Below are positions 82 to 8,480 of a stretch of DNA of 11,951 nucleotides, in pieces. A program made the position numbers and the translations under genes. Source of the stretch: Candidatus Thorarchaeota archaeon. GTDB lineage: Archaea; Asgardarchaeota; Thorarchaeia; Thorarchaeales; Thorarchaeaceae. The DNA is taken from positions 1-11,951 of the forward strand of contig JAOUFI010000070.1 of NCBI GenBank assembly GCA_029858305.1, read 5' to 3'. The number at the start of each line of letters is the position of its first letter. The first letter of the stretch is position 1. Below the pieces are notes generated by a model. It ran no database searches and was not told the origin of the DNA. It was given only the letters and a program-made list of their open reading frames with translations.

Positions 82-675
82 CTAGTATCTGCGTCGACTG
101 TCGCCGCCACCGTAGCCGCCACCACTGCTTCTTCGGTCACGACCACCATAGCCGCTACTACCACCACGTCGGTCGCCACCGTAGCCGCCTTCGCTGTTTC
201 GACCACTATAGCCGCCACCGCCGCCACGACGATCTCCGCCGTAACCACCACTGCCGCCACTTCGACCGCCACCACCGTAGCTCCTACGTGGTCTATCGTC
301 TTCGTGCTCTTCAGCAGACATATCGACATCCATGTTGACTTCCTCGATGGCTTCTGCAGCCTGCTCGAGTTTGCCATATCTACCGACATTCAATCGTAAG
401 TTTCCTCGAAAGAGTCCAGTGTATCCATTTGTAAGATTGTAACTAGTTCCTTCCGTAATGTTATCAATAGCCTCATCCCAGAGCGGAACTTGAACAGTTC
501 CACTTGTATCACCAACAGTGATATCACAGACACGGTGAGATGTCCCATCACTGCGGGACTCAATCTCACGCTCTTCGCCCATGCTGATCACCTTGAAAGA
601 TATGGTGACATTCTTCATTCGTGGCTTTAGTTCTGCCACTGTAGCCTCAATTGGCTCACGTTCTTCATAACCCAT
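82..675 (-). CDS. ssb: Single-stranded DNA-binding protein, single OB fold (crenarchaeal SSB/hSSB1-like), with acidic linker and Gly/Arg/Tyr-rich disordered tail
   Basis: OB-fold pattern VAELKP..NVTISFKVI..HRVCDITVGDTSGTVQVPLWD..NGYTGLFRGNLRLNVGRYG; aromatics W66/Y85/F89 sit where base-stacking residues occur in Sulfolobus SSB; GAGTGA RBS upstream of ATG 675; TAG stop. Confidence 0.9.
   Translation of the reverse strand: MGYEEREPIEATVAELKPRMKNVTISFKVISMGEEREIESRSDGTSHRVCDITVGDTSGTVQVPLWDEAIDNITEGTSYNLTNGYTGLFRGNLRLNVGRYGKLEQAAEAIEEVNMDVDMSAEEHEDDRPRRSYGGGGRSGGSGGYGGDRRGGGGGYSGRNSEGGYGGDRRGGSSGYGGRDRRSSGGGYGGGDSRRRY
85..294 (-). repeat. Low-complexity coding repeat (GGYGG / GGYGGDRRGG units) in the SSB tail
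   Basis: GGYGGDRRGG occurs at aa 143-152 and 163-172; five YGG plus one YSG; recurring ccaccgtagc-type units in the DNA. Confidence 0.9.
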
Positions 676-904: not shown

Positions 905-1546
905 CTAATTCTTCTCATCTTTGAAATCGATTTTCTTATGGGAGTTGTCACAGAATGGTTTGTTCTTCGATCCTCCACAACGACAGAGAGTATAATGCTC
1001 CTTGGACTCAGGACGCGATTCCTGGTCATCGATTAGCTCAATCCAACCAACGAATTCAAGAGGCCCATTTTTGGCAATTTTTATTGCAGGTTCACGATTC
1101 AAGTCTTGAATTCGTTGAGTGCCAATCTTGTAGCTGAGTGAACCGGAGGGACATTTTTCAATGGTTTCGATGGTCTTTCGCACACTTCCATTATCAGGAA
1201 AGATCCACATAGGTTTCTTATCCTTTTGAAATACTTCCGGACTCTCCCTCACACAGGCACCATCAGCTGAACATACACCTCGGTTGTCAAGAATAGTTAT
1301 TTCCTTCCCTTTGAATTCAACAACTTTGTCTGGACGTCGGTCAGGTTCTTTCGCTCCTGAGAAATCAACTTTGGAATGTGAACCATCACAGTAAGGTTTG
1401 TCCTTCGAATGTCCACATCTACAGAGAGCTGTTACAGGTCCCATATCTATCTCTTTACCCTTAGAGTTGACACACTTTGGCGCACCAACTACCATGTATG
1501 GTCCATACAAATCAAAAACGACCATGGGCTTGTGGTTCTTATTCAT
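905..1546 (-). CDS. CDGSH iron-sulfur protein with CDGSH - divergent mono-cluster ferredoxin (Fer4_19/DUF1271-like) - CDGSH architecture
   Basis: LCRCGHSKDKPYCDGSH and LCRCGGSKNKPFCDNSH motifs, each preceded by a GPY/GPL strand; central CSADGAC...CPSG. Start moved from 1567 to ATG 1546 because a GAGCTGTGA RBS-like site precedes it and a TATA-like ATTAAAA lies at 1587-1581. Confidence 0.9.
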   Translation of the reverse strand: MNKNHKPMVVFDLYGPYMVVGAPKCVNSKGKEIDMGPVTALCRCGHSKDKPYCDGSHSKVDFSGAKEPDRRPDKVVEFKGKEITILDNRGVCSADGACVRESPEVFQKDKKPMWIFPDNGSVRKTIETIEKCPSGSLSYKIGTQRIQDLNREPAIKIAKNGPLEFVGWIELIDDQESRPESKEHYTLCRCGGSKNKPFCDNSHKKIDFKDEKN

Positions 1547-1580
1547 ATAATCACAGCTCTCATACATGGATGAGCCTGCA

Positions 1581-1587: not shown

Positions 1588-1631
1588 GTTACAATCTCTC
1601 AAGCTACCAAAACAAGTAGGAATATTTTACA

Positions 1632-1769
1632 GGACCCACCCACAGCACGATAGAGGCGGATCTATGCTGTGTCCACGGGTGGGTCCAAGGGAGGGGTTGT
1701 CATCTGAGTGTCAAAGAGTGCTTAGCACTTTGAGGGCTCCCAAAGAGGGTAGGGGTGTAGTACTTTGAT
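1632..1769 (-). ncRNA. Putative structured non-coding RNA or leader of about 140 nt (three hairpins, C-rich single-stranded segments); family not recognised
   Basis: Perfect 10-bp stem GGACCCACCC/GGGTGGGTCC (1632-1641/1677-1686) with nested ACAGCA/TGCTGT and TAGA/TCTA; two related TCAAAG..CTTTG hairpins (1712-1733, 1741-1768); TATA-like TTATAT at 1799-1794 on the - strand about 30 nt upstream; no credible protein ORF. Strand and expression are inferred. Confidence 0.5.
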
Positions 1770-1793
1770 ACGAAACTATGTATGATGTTTGAG

Positions 1794-1799
1794 ATATAA
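1794..1799 (-). promoter_or_regulatory. Candidate TATA box for the putative ncRNA
   Basis: CTTATATC on the - strand; a TA initiator-like step at 1770/1769 lies at the expected archaeal spacing. Confidence 0.4.
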
Positions 1800-1894
1800 G
1801 GTCATAATGCAAGTGAGCGGCGATTTTCAATCCCCGAATACACATTGTTTGATAATAGGCATGCTCGAAATGCATACATGAAAACATGGTAACG

Positions 1895-1956: not shown

Positions 1957-2949
1957 TTGAAGATTGGTATCATAGGCGCGGGAAATATGGGGCGTATCCA
2001 TGCTCGTATCCTCAATGACATGGGCGCCTTAGCTGGTATTGCAGACAAAGATATAGAAACAGCAATGAGTGTCGCTAAAACGTACGATGTACCAGCCTAT
2101 GAAAACTATGAAGAACTGATTGAGAATGTTCAGCCAATTGCACTAATCATCTCTACACCTACATCGTTACACGCATCAATTGCCAACCGAATAGCATCTA
2201 AGTATGACAACATTCGGGGATTGCTAATTGAAAAACCTCTAGCTAGTACTCTTGAAGATGGAAAGAAGGTAGCTGAAGTGGTCAAGAGGAAGGGAATCGT
2301 CACGCTGATATCACACTCAGAGATTTACAATCCGATTGTAACCAAGGCCTTGTCCCTCATCCAAACGGACGCTATTGGTGTTCCACGTACAGTGATCCAC
2401 GACCGCCGGGGTTTTGTAGAACCTTCAAGGATTGCTTCCCTTGGAGATGTATACGAAGATATTGGAGTACATGATTTTGATATCATGGCTCGTATTAGTC
2501 AAGGACCAGCAAGTCTGTTCGCCCGAAGTCACAAAGAGAGTGGAATCTATAATAGTGGTACTGTAATGGTCGATTTTGAAACCGGTGCACATCATATCTT
2601 CCATTTGTCGCGTCAATACACTGGTAGAAGAAGATACATGGATGTTTCAGGAACTAAAGGGTCATTAGTGCTTGACTTGTTTGGACAGATTATAAAGATA
2701 CAGAATCTTGATCAGGCACCAATGGCAGCAAGCGACACAATCAAACTCCCCGAGAGAGGTGCTACGATTAAAGTCTACGGAGAGCCCGTAAGAGAGGTGC
2801 TTAATGACTTCATTACCTGCGTAAAGACAGGGAGAACACCGAAGGTGAACATCGATGATGCACTCTCGGCACTTGAGATAGTTGAAGCAGCACGAGAAAG
2901 TACTAGGACAGGTAAAGTAGTCAATATAGAGGTCAAGCGAAGGAAATAA
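1957..2949 (+). CDS. Gfo/Idh/MocA family NAD(P)-dependent oxidoreductase (substrate unknown)
   Basis: N-terminal Rossmann motif KIGIIGAGNMG, STPT..H, LIEKPLA motif, catalytic DIGVHDFD; TTG start, with an in-frame TGA at 1939-1941 limiting any upstream extension. Confidence 0.92.
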   Translation: MKIGIIGAGNMGRIHARILNDMGALAGIADKDIETAMSVAKTYDVPAYENYEELIENVQPIALIISTPTSLHASIANRIASKYDNIRGLLIEKPLASTLEDGKKVAEVVKRKGIVTLISHSEIYNPIVTKALSLIQTDAIGVPRTVIHDRRGFVEPSRIASLGDVYEDIGVHDFDIMARISQGPASLFARSHKESGIYNSGTVMVDFETGAHHIFHLSRQYTGRRRYMDVSGTKGSLVLDLFGQIIKIQNLDQAPMAASDTIKLPERGATIKVYGEPVREVLNDFITCVKTGRTPKVNIDDALSALEIVEAARESTRTGKVVNIEVKRRK

Positions 2950-4228
2950 TCCTACCAAAGAGATGAGTTCGCGCCGCTTTCACCACTTGCAAGTTGACAA
3001 TAGAACCAAGATCTGCCTCTTCATGAACTATGATGGATTTGTATGACGAATTTCGACAGAGAAAACCGCTGCGAGACCCCCTCTCGGTCACGATAGCAGG
3101 ACCAGACCAGCCAATCCAAGTGTTGTTGTCCTCTAGAAGTATCCTATTCACAAGCATTGTGAGACGCCGACTTCGTTGTTTCTTTGTTGAGGTTTCTACC
3201 TTGTTCTTTGACTTGGATGCTTGTGTTCCAGGACGGTCACCATATTTTGAAATATTAACAACAGTGGGTCGGATTCTTCGAATAACATCGAGCGTGAGAT
3301 CAAAGTCATCCTTGGTTTCTCCGGGAAATCCAACAATGATATCCGTCGCAATGGTAGCATCATTGAAATTCTCTCTTATGGTTCTGATGATACTCTCCCA
3401 GTCTTCTACGGTGTACAATCGACCCATTGCTTTTAGGACTGAATCACTGCCAGACTGCAAGGGAATATGAAAGAACTTGAAGAAATGATCCGACTTCATT
3501 GTCTGAAGAAGTTCGCCAATAGATTCTGACACAAGATTAGGATTAAACATTCCAAGTCTAAACTTATGACGACCCTCTATCTCGTCGATTTTTTGTATCA
3601 ATGTTACAAGATTGCTGTCAATGTCAAAACCATACGCTCCAAGGTCTTGAGAGGTGATACGAATCTCACGGTATCCATCTCTTGTACACTTTTCAATGGC
3701 TTGACAGATTTCTCTCTCCAAATGGCTTTTTACCTGTCCTCTTGCAAACTTGACTGCGCAGTAGGAACAATTGCCCAGACAACCTTCACAGATTGGTATC
3801 GTACAAATGACACTCTCAGCCGGAGCCTCAAGCCATGTCAACTTGGATATATCCGTGGAGTCTAAATGACTGATACCTCTCGCACCGGCCAATATCTTAG
3901 GTACAATCTCAATCATAGATTCGATTGCCTGAGGCCCTAGAATAGCTGCATAGTTAGGAATTGCTTTTTCAATACGTGAGAGGGAGATTTTCGGAAGGCA
4001 TCCTGTCACAATTACTGGCTTGGTGCTCCCACTCAATTCTTCCAGTCTATGAATTATACGATCCTCGGTAGGTTCTTTCACTCCACATGTATTCAATATG
4101 ATAAGTTCTGCTTGTTCAAAACTCCCAACAGGCTGAGCATCAATCTCTCTCAATTTACCTATTATTATATCGGAATCAGCTGAATTAAGGGAACAGCCGT
4201 ATGTTTCCAAGTAGAATCGGATGGGCAT
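2933..4228 (-). CDS. mtaB: tRNA t6A37 methylthiotransferase, archaeal/eukaryotic MiaB-like type (e-MtaB/CDKAL1 family), radical SAM
   Basis: UPF0004 cysteines ETYGC, LNTC, VTGC; radical SAM CLGNCSYC; SQDLGAYG, RLGMFNP, HIPLQSGSD, ATDIIVGFPGET; C-terminal TRAM-like region. 3' end overlaps the convergent oxidoreductase by 17 bp. Confidence 0.88.
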   Translation of the reverse strand: MPIRFYLETYGCSLNSADSDIIIGKLREIDAQPVGSFEQAELIILNTCGVKEPTEDRIIHRLEELSGSTKPVIVTGCLPKISLSRIEKAIPNYAAILGPQAIESMIEIVPKILAGARGISHLDSTDISKLTWLEAPAESVICTIPICEGCLGNCSYCAVKFARGQVKSHLEREICQAIEKCTRDGYREIRITSQDLGAYGFDIDSNLVTLIQKIDEIEGRHKFRLGMFNPNLVSESIGELLQTMKSDHFFKFFHIPLQSGSDSVLKAMGRLYTVEDWESIIRTIRENFNDATIATDIIVGFPGETKDDFDLTLDVIRRIRPTVVNISKYGDRPGTQASKSKNKVETSTKKQRSRRLTMLVNRILLEDNNTWIGWSGPAIVTERGSRSGFLCRNSSYKSIIVHEEADLGSIVNLQVVKAARTHLFGRIISFA

Positions 4229-4973: not shown

Positions 4974-6539
4974 CTATTCATTACCACCAGCAGCAAGTCT
5001 TTGCTGATACATCCTATAGGATAGAGTGAGGGTTTTTGGATGGGCAGACCTGTATTCATCTAAGCGTCGTACTGATGTTGAATGAGGTGCATTCCTAACC
5101 TTGTCCGGGTCCTCATGAGCCTCTCTTGAAATCTGACGAAGTGCTTCAATAAAGTAGTCAAGCTCCTGTTTCGATTCTGTTTCTGTTGGCTCAATCATTA
5201 ATGCTTCTGGGACAATAAGCGGAAAATATACAGTAGGAGCGTGCACTCCAAAATCCAAGAGCCGTTTTGCAACATTCATTGCAGTCACCCCGGTCGATTC
5301 TTTCAGCTCTTCCGCAGAGATGACGCATTCGTGCATACGTGGTGCATCCTGAGAGAATGGTAGTGTGAATCCTGAAATCTTTCTAACATGATGAGCGATA
5401 TAATTCGCGTTGAGCACAGCCACCTCAGAGGCTCTTTTGAGACCCTCTCTACCAAGTGAGTAGATGTATGCGTATGCTCTAACCAGTACCCCAAAGTTGC
5501 CATAGAAAGATTTCACCTTGCCAATGGATCTGGGTCGATTATAATCTAAATCAAATGAACCGGTTTCTGTTTTGATGATACGAGGAACTGGCAAGAATTC
5601 GGCAAGTTTGTCTTTCACCCCTACTGGACCTGCTCCAGGACCTCCACCACCATGTGGCGTTGAGAATGTCTTGTGAAGGTTGAGGTGCACAACATCAAAG
5701 CCCATGTCACCAGGACGCACTTTGTGCATAATTGCATTGAAGTTCGCCCCATCATAGTACACAAGGCCACCGGCGTCATGAACGATATCGGTAATCTCAC
5801 CTATATCCTTCTCAAAAACACCGATAGTATTGGGGTTCGTAAGCATTAGGCCGGCAGTTTTGGGTCCCGCCGCCTCCTTCAGAGCTTCTATGTTTACTAG
5901 CCCTTCCCTACTAGAAGGAATCACAACCACATTGTAACCAGCCATGGCAGCTGAGGCGGGGTTCGTTCCATGCGCAGCATCAGGTATCAGCATTTCATTT
6001 CTCTGATCACATTCCTGCGTTATGCATCGATGATACTCACGCATCATCATCACACCAGTCCACTCACCCTGGGCTCCTGCTGCAGGTTGAAGTGTTACCG
6101 CATCCATGCCTGTTATTTCACCCAACCATTGCTCAAGCTCCCACATCAACTCAAGGGCACCTTGAGTTGTAGAAACATCCTGTAGTGGATGAAGCCATGA
6201 AAAACCAAGCTGTGAGGCCGCCCAGTTATTCTGTTCAGGATTATACTTCATGGTACAACTTCCTAGAGGATAAGTACCAAGGCTGACTGCGTAATTCATC
6301 TGAGATAGTCTTGTGAAGTGTCGCACAACAGCGGGCTCAGAAACCTCAGGAATCTTTGGAGGTGTTTTTCTCCGCATTGCCTTTGGTAGAGTATTTCGTA
6401 CATCTTGGACCTTACGTATTTCTTCCTCAGCTACAGGAAACTTATGAGCAATCACTCCAGGATTCGAACGTTCAAAAAGAAGGGGCTCGATCCACTTTGC
6501 TTGTCGCATTCTAGATTCGATTGGGTGTTGGTCGCTCAT
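4974..6539 (-). CDS. gcvPB: Glycine dehydrogenase (decarboxylating) subunit 2, glycine cleavage P-protein beta
   Basis: YPLGSCTMKYNP, LQPAAGAQGE, AHGTNPASA, MLTNPNT, YYDGANFNA, PLP-lysine motif HLNLHKTFSTPHGGGGPG, HAPTVYFP, MIEPTETE; ATGA overlap with gcvPA at 6536-6539. Confidence 0.97.
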   Translation of the reverse strand: MSDQHPIESRMRQAKWIEPLLFERSNPGVIAHKFPVAEEEIRKVQDVRNTLPKAMRRKTPPKIPEVSEPAVVRHFTRLSQMNYAVSLGTYPLGSCTMKYNPEQNNWAASQLGFSWLHPLQDVSTTQGALELMWELEQWLGEITGMDAVTLQPAAGAQGEWTGVMMMREYHRCITQECDQRNEMLIPDAAHGTNPASAAMAGYNVVVIPSSREGLVNIEALKEAAGPKTAGLMLTNPNTIGVFEKDIGEITDIVHDAGGLVYYDGANFNAIMHKVRPGDMGFDVVHLNLHKTFSTPHGGGGPGAGPVGVKDKLAEFLPVPRIIKTETGSFDLDYNRPRSIGKVKSFYGNFGVLVRAYAYIYSLGREGLKRASEVAVLNANYIAHHVRKISGFTLPFSQDAPRMHECVISAEELKESTGVTAMNVAKRLLDFGVHAPTVYFPLIVPEALMIEPTETESKQELDYFIEALRQISREAHEDPDKVRNAPHSTSVRRLDEYRSAHPKTLTLSYRMYQQRLAAGGNE

Positions 6540-8404: not shown

Positions 8405-8480
8405 AGCCCCGTGGTGTAGTGGTCCAGCATTGAGGGTTTTGGCCTCTCAGACCTAGGTTCAAATCCTGGCGGGGCTACCA
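8405..8480 (+). tRNA. tRNA-Gln (anticodon UUG), intronless, CCA encoded
   Basis: Acceptor AGCCCCG/CGGGGCT + A + CCA; D arm GTGT/GCAT with GG in the loop; anticodon stem GAGGG/CTCTC, loop TTTTGGC (TTG at 8439-8441); T arm CTAGG-TTCAAAT-CCTGG; A1-U72 pair typical of archaeal tRNA-Gln. Confidence 0.97.

What the first reader, a model, noticed from the sequence alone, without database searches (positions are those of the whole stretch)
1632..1799. Unannotated three-hairpin RNA with C-rich, anti-Shine-Dalgarno-like segments upstream of an Fe-S gene
Seen on the - strand after a TTATAT box: hairpin 1 UCAAAG-(UACUACACCCCUACCCU)-CUUUGG; hairpin 2 UCAAAGUGCUAAGCACUCUUUGA; linker ACAACCCCUCCCUU; then a long stem GGACCCACCC..ACAGCA-UAGA-loop-UCUA..UGCUGU-GGGUGGGUCC. 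Hairpins 1 and 2 share TCAAAGT[A/G]CTA...CTCTTTG, and the C-rich motif occurs twice (ACACCCCTACCCT / ACAACCCCTCCCT). It does not resemble tRNA, SRP RNA, RNase P RNA, or C/D or H/ACA guides by eye. Inference: either a trans-acting sRNA whose exposed C-rich tracts pair with G-rich ribosome binding sites (the logic of C-rich-loop sRNAs such as Staphylococcus RNAIII/RsaE), or a regulatory leader for the downstream CDGSH gene, perhaps iron-responsive.
Basis: partly seen in the sequence, partly recalled or inferred. Interest (0 to 1): 0.72.

Follow-up and report, generated by a model that had tools for sequence, protein, structure and literature searches.

The report
Conserved C-rich small RNA gene, Thorarchaeota
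The flagged stretch is a real, single-copy, previously uncatalogued small RNA gene of one family of Asgard (Thor) archaea that displays unpaired copies of the ribosome's mRNA-docking motif, so it probably controls translation, but it is not a leader of the neighbouring iron-sulfur gene.

Summary
Window 1626-1771 (minus strand) is a stand-alone gene for a non-coding RNA of about 145 nt. A conserved TATA box (1794-1799) lies upstream. The RNA ends in a GC-rich 10-bp stem (1677-1686 with 1632-1641) and a U-rich tail.

- **Copy number and distribution:** it is single-copy in its genome. It occurs in 7 of 7 sampled same-genus and 14 of 26 same-family Thorarchaeota genomes, and in only 1 weak match among 124 other genomes of the phylum.
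- **Neighbours:** it always sits divergently next to a Gfo/Idh/MocA oxidoreductase (20 of 20 and 14 of 14 loci). The CDGSH gene follows it in only 4 of 20 loci, so the leader reading fails.
- **Structure:** the terminal helix keeps pairing through compensatory changes (487 of 490 cells).
- **Motif:** CCUCCC, the core of the 16S anti-Shine-Dalgarno tail, is in 21 of 23 lineages and predicted unpaired (0.84 versus 0.48).
- **Databases:** no Rfam family matches.
- **Function:** masking of ribosome-binding sites is inferred only. I found no conserved target and no expression data.

The parts
1794..1799 (-). TATA box (TTATAT, within CCTTATATC) of the RNA gene
   Evidence: Conserved as CTTATAT or CTTAAAT about 26 nt upstream of the conserved 5' end of the RNA, in 20 of 20 genus loci and in the wider Thorarchaeota loci.
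1801..1828 (-). Upstream promoter-proximal conserved block (GAAAAnCGnCG ... CATnAnGAC). Possible BRE or regulator site. Conserved within the genus only.
   Evidence: Alignment of 20 loci. The distal part is not conserved in more distant loci. Its function was not tested.
1626..1771 (-). Predicted RNA body of about 145 nt. The 5' end is inferred from the TATA spacing and the 3' end from the U-rich tract. Neither end has been mapped.
   Evidence: Single copy in the genome.
1754..1767 (-). Conserved 5' single-stranded tract CAAAGUACUACACC (CA-rich)
   Evidence: Conserved as CCAAAGUAnCACACC or CCAAGAUUCACACACACC across the three genus subgroups.
1739..1768 (-). Present here but not conserved.
   Evidence: Only 64.4% of cells are paired in 10 sequences, and the 3' arm is absent in the closest relative.
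1711..1733 (-). A variable middle hairpin.
   Evidence: Every relative has a hairpin in this region, but it is built from different arms (for example GGAAUCC/GGAUUCC or GCUACAG/CUGUAGC). No column-wise covariation test was possible.
1687..1704 (-). Invariant single-stranded C-rich tract GAUGACAACCCCUCCCUU, holding the anti-Shine-Dalgarno-like core CCUCCC
   Evidence: This is the best-conserved segment in BLAST hits (91% identity over query 124-156). CCUCCC is present in 21 of 23 lineage representatives against a shuffled maximum of 10. Predicted unpaired probability is 0.84 against 0.48 for the rest.
1632..1686 (-). Terminal hairpin. The lower stem is 1677-1686 with 1632-1641 (GGACCCACCC/GGGUGGGUCC). 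The inner stem is 1665-1670 with 1642-1647. The apical loop holds GCCUC (1653-1657).
   Evidence: 487 of 490 cells are paired in 49 sequences, with 16 distinct arm pairs, compensatory changes at positions 3, 4, 6, 7, 8, 9 and 10, and 16 G-U cells. In distant relatives the loop carries GCCUCCC.
1620..1631 (-). U-rich tail after the stem (UGUAAAAUAUUC here, UUUUACA in most of the genus). Presumed termination signal.
   Evidence: Termination is inferred, not shown.

Best explanation
This is an independent gene, read from the minus strand, for a non-coding RNA of about 145 nt that is specific to one family of Thorarchaeota (Asgard archaea). The RNA has four parts: a CA-rich 5' end, a fast-evolving structured middle, an invariant unpaired C-rich tract (…GACAACyCCCUCCCUy), and a very stable terminal hairpin followed by U residues.

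The hairpin's loop carries a second C-rich motif: GCCUC in this genus and GCCUCCC in relatives. The exposed CCUCC(C) motifs copy the core of the organism's own 16S rRNA 3' tail.

The most likely mechanism is that the RNA acts in trans. It would base-pair with GGAGG-type Shine-Dalgarno regions of certain mRNAs and so block (or otherwise alter) their translation or stability, as bacterial C-rich sRNAs and Methanosarcina sRNA41 do.

**Shown here in silico:**
- conservation;
- single copy;
- promoter and hairpin signals;
- covariation of the helix;
- strand;
- conservation and predicted accessibility of the motif;
- use of Shine-Dalgarno sequences by the genome.

**Inferred only:**
- transcription;
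- the RNA ends;
- trans action;
- targets.

I put the claim 'real stand-alone ncRNA gene' at about 0.9. The figure in the confidence field is for the anti-SD mechanism.
For: **Independent unit**
- A conserved TATA box lies about 26 nt before the conserved 5' end, and a stem plus U-rich tail closes the unit, in 20 of 20 genus loci and in distant loci.

**Single copy**
- The DNA search of the own genome gives 1 full match; the next best is 18 nt at E 1.14.
- Covariance model R1 gives 1 hit in the own genome.

**Distribution**
- R1 hits 48 of 68 fetched Thorarchaeota loci plus the window.
- In a phylum sample of 151 genomes it hits 16: the own genome, 7 of 7 same-genus genomes, 7 other same-family genomes (14 of 26 in the family), and one weak hit (E 0.008) among 124 genomes of other families.

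**Helix and strand**
- 487 of 490 cells are paired, with compensatory changes at 7 positions.
- 16 cells are G-U or U-G, which would be A-C mismatches on the plus strand. Only 1 cell shows the reverse (C-A).

**Motif**
- CCUCC is in 22 of 23 and CCUCCC in 21 of 23 lineage representatives. The shuffled maximum is 10 for 6-mers.
- The motif's unpaired probability is 0.84 against 0.48, and is higher than the rest of the RNA in 49 of 49 sequences.
- The 16S 3' end reads GGAUCACCUCCU.
- GGAGG and GGAGGUGA peak at -15 to -10 before first ATGs of long ORFs, so the genome uses Shine-Dalgarno sites.

**Not another known RNA**
- RNase P RNA, SRP RNA, 16S and 23S lie elsewhere in the genome.

**Precedents**
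- Cuckoo RNAs carry CCUCCUCCC anti-SD-like loop motifs (PMC4615179, passages read).
- M. mazei sRNA41 masks ribosome-binding sites (review PMC5867862, passages read).
Against: - **No expression data:** no RNA run is listed for this sequence, so transcription and the RNA ends are unproven.
- **No specific target emerged:**
  - A genome-wide duplex scan gave 1022 sites without a stand-out. Most of the 15 top sites I inspected lie inside or antisense to coding regions.
  - The most attractive candidate was the internal ribosome-binding site before a 2-oxoacid:ferredoxin oxidoreductase beta-like ORF. Only its generic AAGGAGG is conserved in 19 relatives; the extended match is not.
  - Pairing with the neighbouring oxidoreductase's 5' region is no better for cognate than for non-cognate pairs (-43.6 against -42.3 kcal/mol, ranks spread evenly).
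- **The stem sequence is too constant:** the outer 6 bp of the terminal stem (GGACCC/GGGUCC) are nearly invariant in sequence, more than a mere terminator needs. This hints at protein recognition or another role.
- **The synteny is unexplained:** the strict association with the oxidoreductase is not accounted for by a trans-acting model.
- **The motif is weakly specific:** any CCUCC-bearing RNA would be predicted to pair with Shine-Dalgarno sites, so the motif argument is suggestive rather than specific.
Confidence: 0.45

Rival explanations
1. Protein-binding or sponge RNA. The repeated unpaired C-rich motifs and the sequence-invariant GGACCC/GGGUCC stem would form a platform for an RNA-binding protein, for example a KH-type poly(C)-binding or 16S-3'-end-binding factor, or an Sm-like protein on the U tail. 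The RNA would titrate or scaffold that protein rather than pair with mRNAs.
For: - The stem sequence is conserved far beyond what pairing requires: 28 of 49 sequences have identical arms, and positions 1-6 are almost invariant.
- Two or more motif copies sit in loop and linker, as in sponge RNAs.
- No conserved mRNA target was found.
Against: - No candidate protein gene is linked to the locus. The constant neighbour is a sugar-type dehydrogenase.
- The motif equals the anti-SD core, which is more simply explained by SD pairing.
- Nothing was tested directly.
Confidence: 0.25
2. Cis-acting leader or riboswitch of the downstream CDGSH iron-sulfur gene, perhaps iron-responsive.
For: - In this window the CDGSH/Fer4_19 gene starts 65 nt after the stem on the same strand.
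- The same arrangement is seen in 4 of 20 genus loci.
Against: - In 16 of 20 genus loci the downstream gene is different or lies on the opposite strand.
- The RNA ends in a strong stem plus U tract.
- An AT-rich TATA-like box (ATTAAAAT, about 1583-1590) lies between the RNA and the CDGSH start (by eye).
- No riboswitch family matches.
Confidence: 0.03
3. An element functionally tied to the divergent Gfo/Idh/MocA oxidoreductase. It would be either a plus-strand 5' leader of that gene, or a divergent promoter-associated RNA whose transcription, rather than its product, regulates the oxidoreductase.
For: The oxidoreductase is the neighbour in 20 of 20 loci found by DNA, in 14 of 14 family loci found by the RNA model, and in 48 of 68 loci found by the protein.
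Against: - G-U pairs fit the minus strand: 16 against 1.
- On the plus strand no promoter precedes the stem (by eye).
- The oxidoreductase has its own conserved TATA-like box about 50 nt before its start, closer than the RNA gene (by eye).
- There is no cognate complementarity to its 5' region.
- Conserved gene order alone can be inherited.
Confidence: 0.07
4. A diverged member of a known housekeeping or guide RNA class that the Rfam models miss: H/ACA or C/D guide, RNase P or SRP fragment, or tRNA-like.
For: The length and the hairpin plus 3' ACA seen in one subgroup (UUUUACA) loosely recall H/ACA RNAs.
Against: - There is no Rfam hit even at E up to 10.
- ACA is not conserved across subgroups.
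- The internal-loop sequences vary while the stem is invariant, the reverse of guide RNAs.
- Complementarity to 16S or 23S is no better than for shuffled segments.
- RNase P and SRP RNAs are found elsewhere.
- No tRNA is called here.
Confidence: 0.03
5. A mobile repeat (MITE) or a chance GC-rich palindrome with no function.
For: The hairpin is an inverted repeat, and thermodynamic significance is modest (z about -2.5).
Against: - One copy in the genome.
- Fixed syntenic position across a family.
- Compensatory changes in the stem.
Confidence: 0.01

Closest known systems
Cuckoo RNA family of Alphaproteobacteria (RSs0680/CcsR, SmelC397 and others; PMC4615179, passages read)
   Same: - Small RNAs whose only strongly conserved sequence is an unpaired anti-Shine-Dalgarno-like C/U-rich motif (CCUCCUCCC there, CCUCCC here).
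- The motif is displayed in hairpin loops.
- The hairpin architecture is modular and variable, and the genomic context is preserved.
   Different: - Those are bacterial, this is archaeal, and there is no sequence or model similarity.
- Here one motif copy lies in a linker 5' of the terminal stem.
- The terminal stem sequence is nearly invariant here, whereas cuckoo stems vary freely.
- Cuckoo RNAs are often multicopy; this RNA is single-copy.
RsaE/RoxS-type C-rich sRNAs of Firmicutes
   Same: - A trans-acting design with exposed C-rich tracts next to a terminator-like hairpin.
- Proposed pairing with G-rich ribosome-binding sites.
   Different: - No homology: the Rfam scan found nothing.
- Different domain of life.
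- No targets or regulators are known here.
Methanosarcina mazei sRNA41 (and sRNA154/162), archaeal intergenic sRNAs (review PMC5867862, passages read)
   Same: An archaeal, intergenic, independently transcribed sRNA, proposed to repress translation by masking ribosome-binding sites.
   Different: - sRNA41 has experimentally supported targets and nitrogen-dependent expression. Here nothing is measured.
- I did not compare sequences, because no sRNA41 sequence was on hand.
- My one polycistronic candidate site was not conserved.
Other CU-rich CCUCC-bearing small RNA genes of Thorarchaeota noted earlier in this scan (unpublished AI notes)
   Same: - Same host family.
- Own TATA promoter.
- A GC-rich closing stem holding open or flanked by pyrimidine-rich CCUCC tracts.
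- No Rfam match.
- In distant relatives, the terminal hairpin of this RNA is exactly such a 'closed loop' (for example L066).
   Different: - Different locus and sequence family. R1 finds only one copy per genome.
- Two further such units lie on another contig of this genome (C75).

Membership tests
Any Rfam 15 family | Covariance-model score at or above the family's gathering score | tested here: not met
   At gathering thresholds the only hit in the window is the tRNA at 8405-8477. With E up to 10 on 1500-2000, the only hit is STnc350 at 13.9 bits, E 9.4, at 1510-1567, outside the element.
C-rich anti-SD-type trans-acting sRNAs (functional class: cuckoo, RsaE/RoxS, sRNA41) | Independent transcription unit (own promoter and terminator, not tied to one downstream gene) | tested here: met
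   The TATA box and the stem plus U tail are conserved. The downstream gene varies. This is in silico only; no RNA reads were available.
C-rich anti-SD-type trans-acting sRNAs (functional class) | Conserved, unpaired C-rich motif complementary to the host's Shine-Dalgarno sequence | tested here: met
   CCUCCC is in 21 of 23 lineages. Unpaired probability is 0.84 against 0.48 in 49 of 49 sequences. The 16S tail is GGAUCACCUCCU. GGAGG is enriched at -15 to -10.
C-rich anti-SD-type trans-acting sRNAs (functional class) | Pairing with defined mRNA ribosome-binding sites, with an effect on translation | tested here: inconclusive
   The duplex scan gave no stand-out. The best polycistronic candidate is not conserved. 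There is no signal with the neighbour's 5' region. Experiments are needed.
Archaeal H/ACA guide RNA | ACA box at fixed distance 3' of the hairpin, and a guide pocket complementary to rRNA | tested here: not met
   The 3' flanks read UGUAAA, UUCCAA, AUUUAA, UUUUAC and so on, so ACA is not conserved. The internal loop is variable. rRNA complementarity is no better than for shuffles. I looked for K-turn GA pairs only by eye and did not see them.
Archaeal C/D box sRNA | Conserved C (RUGAUGA) and D (CUGA) boxes near the ends | tested here: not met
   CAGAUGAC in the window corresponds to CAGAAGAC and CACAGACA in sister subgroups. There is no D box at the 3' end.
Riboswitch or cis leader of the CDGSH gene | Constant association with the regulated downstream gene | tested here: not met
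   CDGSH is downstream in 4 of 20 genus loci. Other or opposite-strand genes lie there elsewhere.
MITE or dispersed repeat | Many copies with target-site duplications | tested here: not met
   One copy by BLAST and one by covariance model.

The most novel reading that the evidence does not exclude
The RNA would be a dedicated mimic of the 16S rRNA 3' tail in Asgard archaea. Its invariant GGACCC/GGGUCC stem and two exposed CCUCCC motifs would form a ribonucleoprotein that globally tunes translation initiation. It would do so either by competing with the ribosome for Shine-Dalgarno-led mRNAs, or by titrating a factor that recognises the anti-SD tail during small-subunit maturation. [quoted passage not shown]
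Probability: 0.12. Interest if true: 0.8.

Novelty: new member of a known kind. Interest (0 to 1): 0.5.

Why it matters
My three literature searches found no paper describing small RNAs of Asgard archaea. I searched for Asgard with small or non-coding RNA and transcriptome, for Thorarchaeota with ncRNA, and for Asgard archaea with Shine-Dalgarno.

This locus gives a clean, family-wide conserved, single-copy RNA gene with a defined promoter, a covarying helix and an exposed anti-Shine-Dalgarno-like motif. It is therefore a ready probe for metatranscriptomes and a concrete candidate for RNA-based control of translation in Thorarchaeota. It also adds a seed alignment for a new RNA family.

It does not open a new mechanism. 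If the inferred function holds, it is an archaeal counterpart of well-known bacterial C-rich sRNAs.

Tried and rejected
- **Expression:** The look-up of sequencing runs listed 21 runs, none on record as RNA. No RNA holder is listed.
- **rRNA guide idea:** duplex scans of three RNA segments against 16S and 23S were no better than 20 shuffles each.
- **Exact 11-mer complements in the genome:** counts were at chance level.
- **Target scan:**
  - Scanning with the 20-nt C-rich tract gave 1022 sites at or below -17 kcal/mol. 325 of them had a start codon and an ORF of at least 60 codons downstream, with no baseline and no stand-out.
  - Most of the 15 top sites I inspected lie inside or antisense to ORFs.
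- **2-oxoacid:ferredoxin oxidoreductase alpha/beta junction as target:** in 19 relatives only AAGGAGG is conserved, not the extended match. Rejected.
- **Co-evolution with the neighbouring oxidoreductase's 5' region:** no signal. The method was also crude, using duplexfold on whole RNAs.
- **Shared extended promoter motif with other stable-RNA genes:** not seen by eye upstream of the RNase P RNA, SRP RNA, 16S, 23S and tRNA-Gln genes. My genome-wide pattern (8 matches) missed even this gene's own promoter, so that part of the test says nothing.
- **MAFFT alignment A2 and model-fitted alignment A4:** about 12 rows are one column out of register in the 5' arm. The pair counts (85-88% paired) therefore understate the helix. 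I recounted with hairpin-anchored arms. That count is partly by construction, because my hairpin finder required 9 uninterrupted pairs.
- **A pseudoknot I drew by eye in the 5' domain of two subgroups:** not tested and not claimed.
- **A CACACC 5' motif:** not among the top enriched words across lineages.
- **Earlier-notes look-ups:** look-ups by place and by sequence gave nothing.

Full report
**What is in the window.** Read on the minus strand, the flagged stretch contains these features in order:
- a TTATAT box (1794-1799);
- a CA-rich tract (CAAAGUACUACACC, 1754-1767);
- a C-rich linker GAUGACAACCCCUCCCUU (1687-1704);
- a long hairpin whose 10-bp base is GGACCCACCC (1677-1686) with GGGUGGGUCC (1632-1641), with an inner ACAGCA/UGCUGU stem and an apical loop holding GCCUC;
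- the tail UGUAAAAUAUU.

The element lies in a 390-bp gap between two divergent genes. One is a CDGSH plus Fer4_19 iron-sulfur protein (905-1567, minus strand). The other is a Gfo/Idh/MocA oxidoreductase (1957-2949, plus strand). The gap is locally rich in G+C: 0.53-0.55 against 0.38-0.45. Folding energies are only modestly better than shuffles, and equally so on both strands (z -2.45 and -2.47). Thermodynamics alone therefore proves little.

**Not a catalogued RNA and not a repeat.**
- Rfam gives nothing for the region, even at E up to 10.
- ARAGORN finds only the tRNA-Gln at 8405-8480.
- RNase P RNA, SRP RNA, 16S and 23S rRNA are found on other contigs.
- The element is single-copy in its 3.04-Mb assembly, both by BLAST (next best match 18 nt, E 1.14) and by a covariance model. 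This excludes a MITE.

**Conservation and gene signals.** A DNA search of 40 relatives found the element in same-genus genomes. The core around the C-rich tract and the stem matched at 78-91% identity. Aligning 20 loci shows three things:
- a conserved promoter block ending in CTTATAT about 26 nt before the first conserved RNA residues;
- a variable middle;
- the nearly invariant …GACAACyCCCUCCCUyGGACCCACCC…GGGUGGGUCC followed by UUUUACA-like tails.

Indels of 1, 2, 4 and 8 nt between close relatives argue against a coding frame.

**Synteny.** The oxidoreductase is the divergent neighbour in 20 of 20 loci. CDGSH is downstream in only 4 of 20. Elsewhere the downstream gene is an SSB-like gene, another ORF, or a gene on the opposite strand. 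This rules out a dedicated CDGSH leader.

**Wider family.**
- A protein-anchored search with the oxidoreductase brought 77 loci. 68 of them are titled Thorarchaeota, Promethearchaeota, Hermodarchaeota or uncultured archaeon, so the host is a Thorarchaeota MAG.
- 4 of the 68 loci hold too little upstream DNA to judge.
- A covariance model of the 3' domain (R1) hits 48 of the 68 loci plus the window at E below 0.01, always on the strand divergent from the oxidoreductase.
- The RNAs range from about 90 to 230 nt. The 5' part is highly variable and modular.
- Several further loci (for example L075, L096, L098, L085, L088) have a TATA box and a CU-rich structured RNA of different shape at the same place. 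A few (for example L059, L060, L068, L071, L077, L091) have a tRNA gene there instead (by eye).
- In an even sample of 151 genomes of the phylum, R1 hits the own genome, 7 of 7 other same-genus genomes, 7 other genomes of the same family (14 of 26 in the family), and one weak hit (E 0.008) among 124 genomes of other families. This search used Infernal's stricter filters.
- All 14 family loci found by the RNA model carry the oxidoreductase next door.

**Structure and strand.**
- The MAFFT and model-fitted alignments put about 12 rows one column out of register. I therefore recounted the terminal helix on hairpin-anchored arms.
- In 49 sequences, 487 of 490 cells pair. There are 16 distinct arm pairs.
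- Double (compensatory) changes occur at positions 3, 4, 6, 7, 8, 9 and 10. Examples are A-U to G-C at position 7 in 8 sequences and C-G to U-A at positions 8-10.
- 16 cells are G-U or U-G, against a single C-A cell. G-U pairs become A-C mismatches on the other strand, so this result, together with the TATA box and the U tail, fixes the minus strand.
- Caveat: my hairpin finder required 9 uninterrupted pairs, so the high pairing fraction is partly by construction. The compensatory changes are not.
- Each relative has some hairpin in the middle region, but built from different arms.

**The conserved motif.** Among 23 lineage representatives, the most widespread words outside the stem are CCUCC (22 of 23), GCCUC (22 of 23) and CCUCCC (21 of 23). 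The maximum for 6-mers in composition-matched shuffles is 10. The motif sits in the linker 5' of the terminal stem, in the stem's loop, or both. Loop examples are UGCCUCCCUC, CAGCCUCCCCC and CCGCCCUCCCUC.

In partition-function folds the motif positions are unpaired with mean probability 0.84, against 0.48 for the rest of each RNA. The motif is more open than the rest in 49 of 49 sequences. The organism's 16S rRNA ends …GGAUCACCUCCU. GGAGG, GAGGU and GGUGA peak 10-15 nt before the first ATG of long ORFs. The genome therefore uses Shine-Dalgarno sites that the motif could cover.

**Mechanism.** The best reading is a trans-acting small RNA that presents copies of the anti-Shine-Dalgarno core to mask ribosome-binding sites. 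This matches the cuckoo RNAs of Alphaproteobacteria (CCUCCUCCC loop motif; PMC4615179, passages read). It also matches Methanosarcina sRNA41, which masks ribosome-binding sites in polycistronic mRNAs (review PMC5867862, passages read).

This step is inferred. I found no RNA-seq run and no convincing target:
- The scan gave 1022 sites without a stand-out.
- The attractive internal ribosome-binding site before a 2-oxoacid:ferredoxin oxidoreductase beta-like ORF keeps only a generic AAGGAGG in 19 relatives.
- Cognate RNA and oxidoreductase-leader pairs are no better than non-cognate ones.
- rRNA complementarity is at shuffle level.

**What remains unexplained.**
- The outer six base pairs of the terminal stem are almost invariant in sequence across the family. 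A terminator would not need this, which keeps a protein-binding or sponge role alive.
- The strict pairing with the oxidoreductase gene has no functional explanation.
- The genus-level block GAAAAnCGnCG upstream of the TATA box may be a regulator site.

**Relation to other notes of this scan.** Earlier AI notes describe other CU-rich, CCUCC-bearing small RNA genes in Thorarchaeota at other loci. I treated these as leads. In this genome I did find two such units, each a TATA box followed by a GC-rich closing stem around a CU-rich loop, in a gene-free gap of contig C75 at about 5677-6120. The present RNA is thus one more family within what looks like a lineage-wide class.

In distant relatives such as L066, the terminal hairpin of this RNA is itself a 'closed loop' of 21 pyrimidine-rich residues.

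**Verdict.**
- The first interpretation (C-rich trans sRNA) stands as the best but untested reading. The second (CDGSH leader) is rejected.
- The RNA is a new, uncatalogued family of a known kind.
- My literature searches found no description of it. I saw only listings and abstracts for most papers, and passages for PMC5867862 and PMC4615179.

Noticed in passing
own genome contig C75, about 5677-6120 (+), outside the window: A gene-free gap holds at least two further small-RNA-like units. Each has a TATA-like box (GCTTAAAT, CTTATAT) followed by a GC-rich closing stem (GGGGGCC/GGCCCCC, GGGGGUCCG/CGGACCCCC) around a CU-rich loop with CUCCUCC or CCCUCCC. They resemble the clustered CU-rich RNAs noted earlier in other Thorarchaeota.
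   Followed up: partly
L123 (G068:C43:12645-12722, minus strand), a genome of another family of the phylum: A weak R1 hit (23.9 bits, E 0.008) with the same layout: CCCCCCUCCUCGCC, then a GGACCCG...CGGGUCC stem with CCUGCCUCUACC in the loop. There is no oxidoreductase nearby. It may be a distant relative or an independent look-alike.
   Followed up: partly
L057, L058, L063, L078, L085, L088, L092, L096, L098 and others, just beyond the RNA gene: In many Thorarchaeota loci a long-arm tRNA gene lies convergent to, or in place of, the RNA gene. It is seen as its reverse complement, GGTGCGGAGGGCGAGATTTGAAC.... In loci without the RNA (for example L059, L060, L068, L071, L077, L091) it directly adjoins the oxidoreductase.
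   Followed up: no
L068, L071, L091, about 320-395 nt upstream of the oxidoreductase (RNA orientation): Another conserved long inverted repeat (GTGACGGCGGGCTGAGCC ... CTCGCCGTCAC, about 73 nt) of unknown nature sits next to the tRNA.
   Followed up: no
window 905-1567 (-): The downstream protein joins two CDGSH iron-binding domains with a divergent 4Fe-4S mono-cluster domain (Pfam zf-CDGSH with 2 stretches, and Fer4_19). No NCBIfam model names it. Its likely true start is the ATG near 1546, judging from relatives.
   Followed up: partly
window 82-675 (-): An SSB/RPA-like OB-fold protein with a long Gly/Arg/Tyr-rich (RGG/GGY) C-terminal tail. It is the usual gene further downstream of the RNA across the genus.
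   Followed up: no
window 2933-2949: The 3' ends of the oxidoreductase (plus strand) and of the MiaB-like tRNA methylthiotransferase (2933-4228, minus strand) overlap by 17 nt, convergently.
   Followed up: no
window 8405-8480 (+): tRNA-Gln (anticodon UUG), the only Rfam or ARAGORN hit in the window.
   Followed up: no
own genome contig C138, about 3555-3610 (+): An intergenic hairpin GAGGGAGGGG...CCCCUCCC followed by GUUUUCUUUAUU. It is a terminator-like structure whose 5' arm is a near-perfect complement of the RNA's C-rich tract. It came up in the target scan.
   Followed up: no
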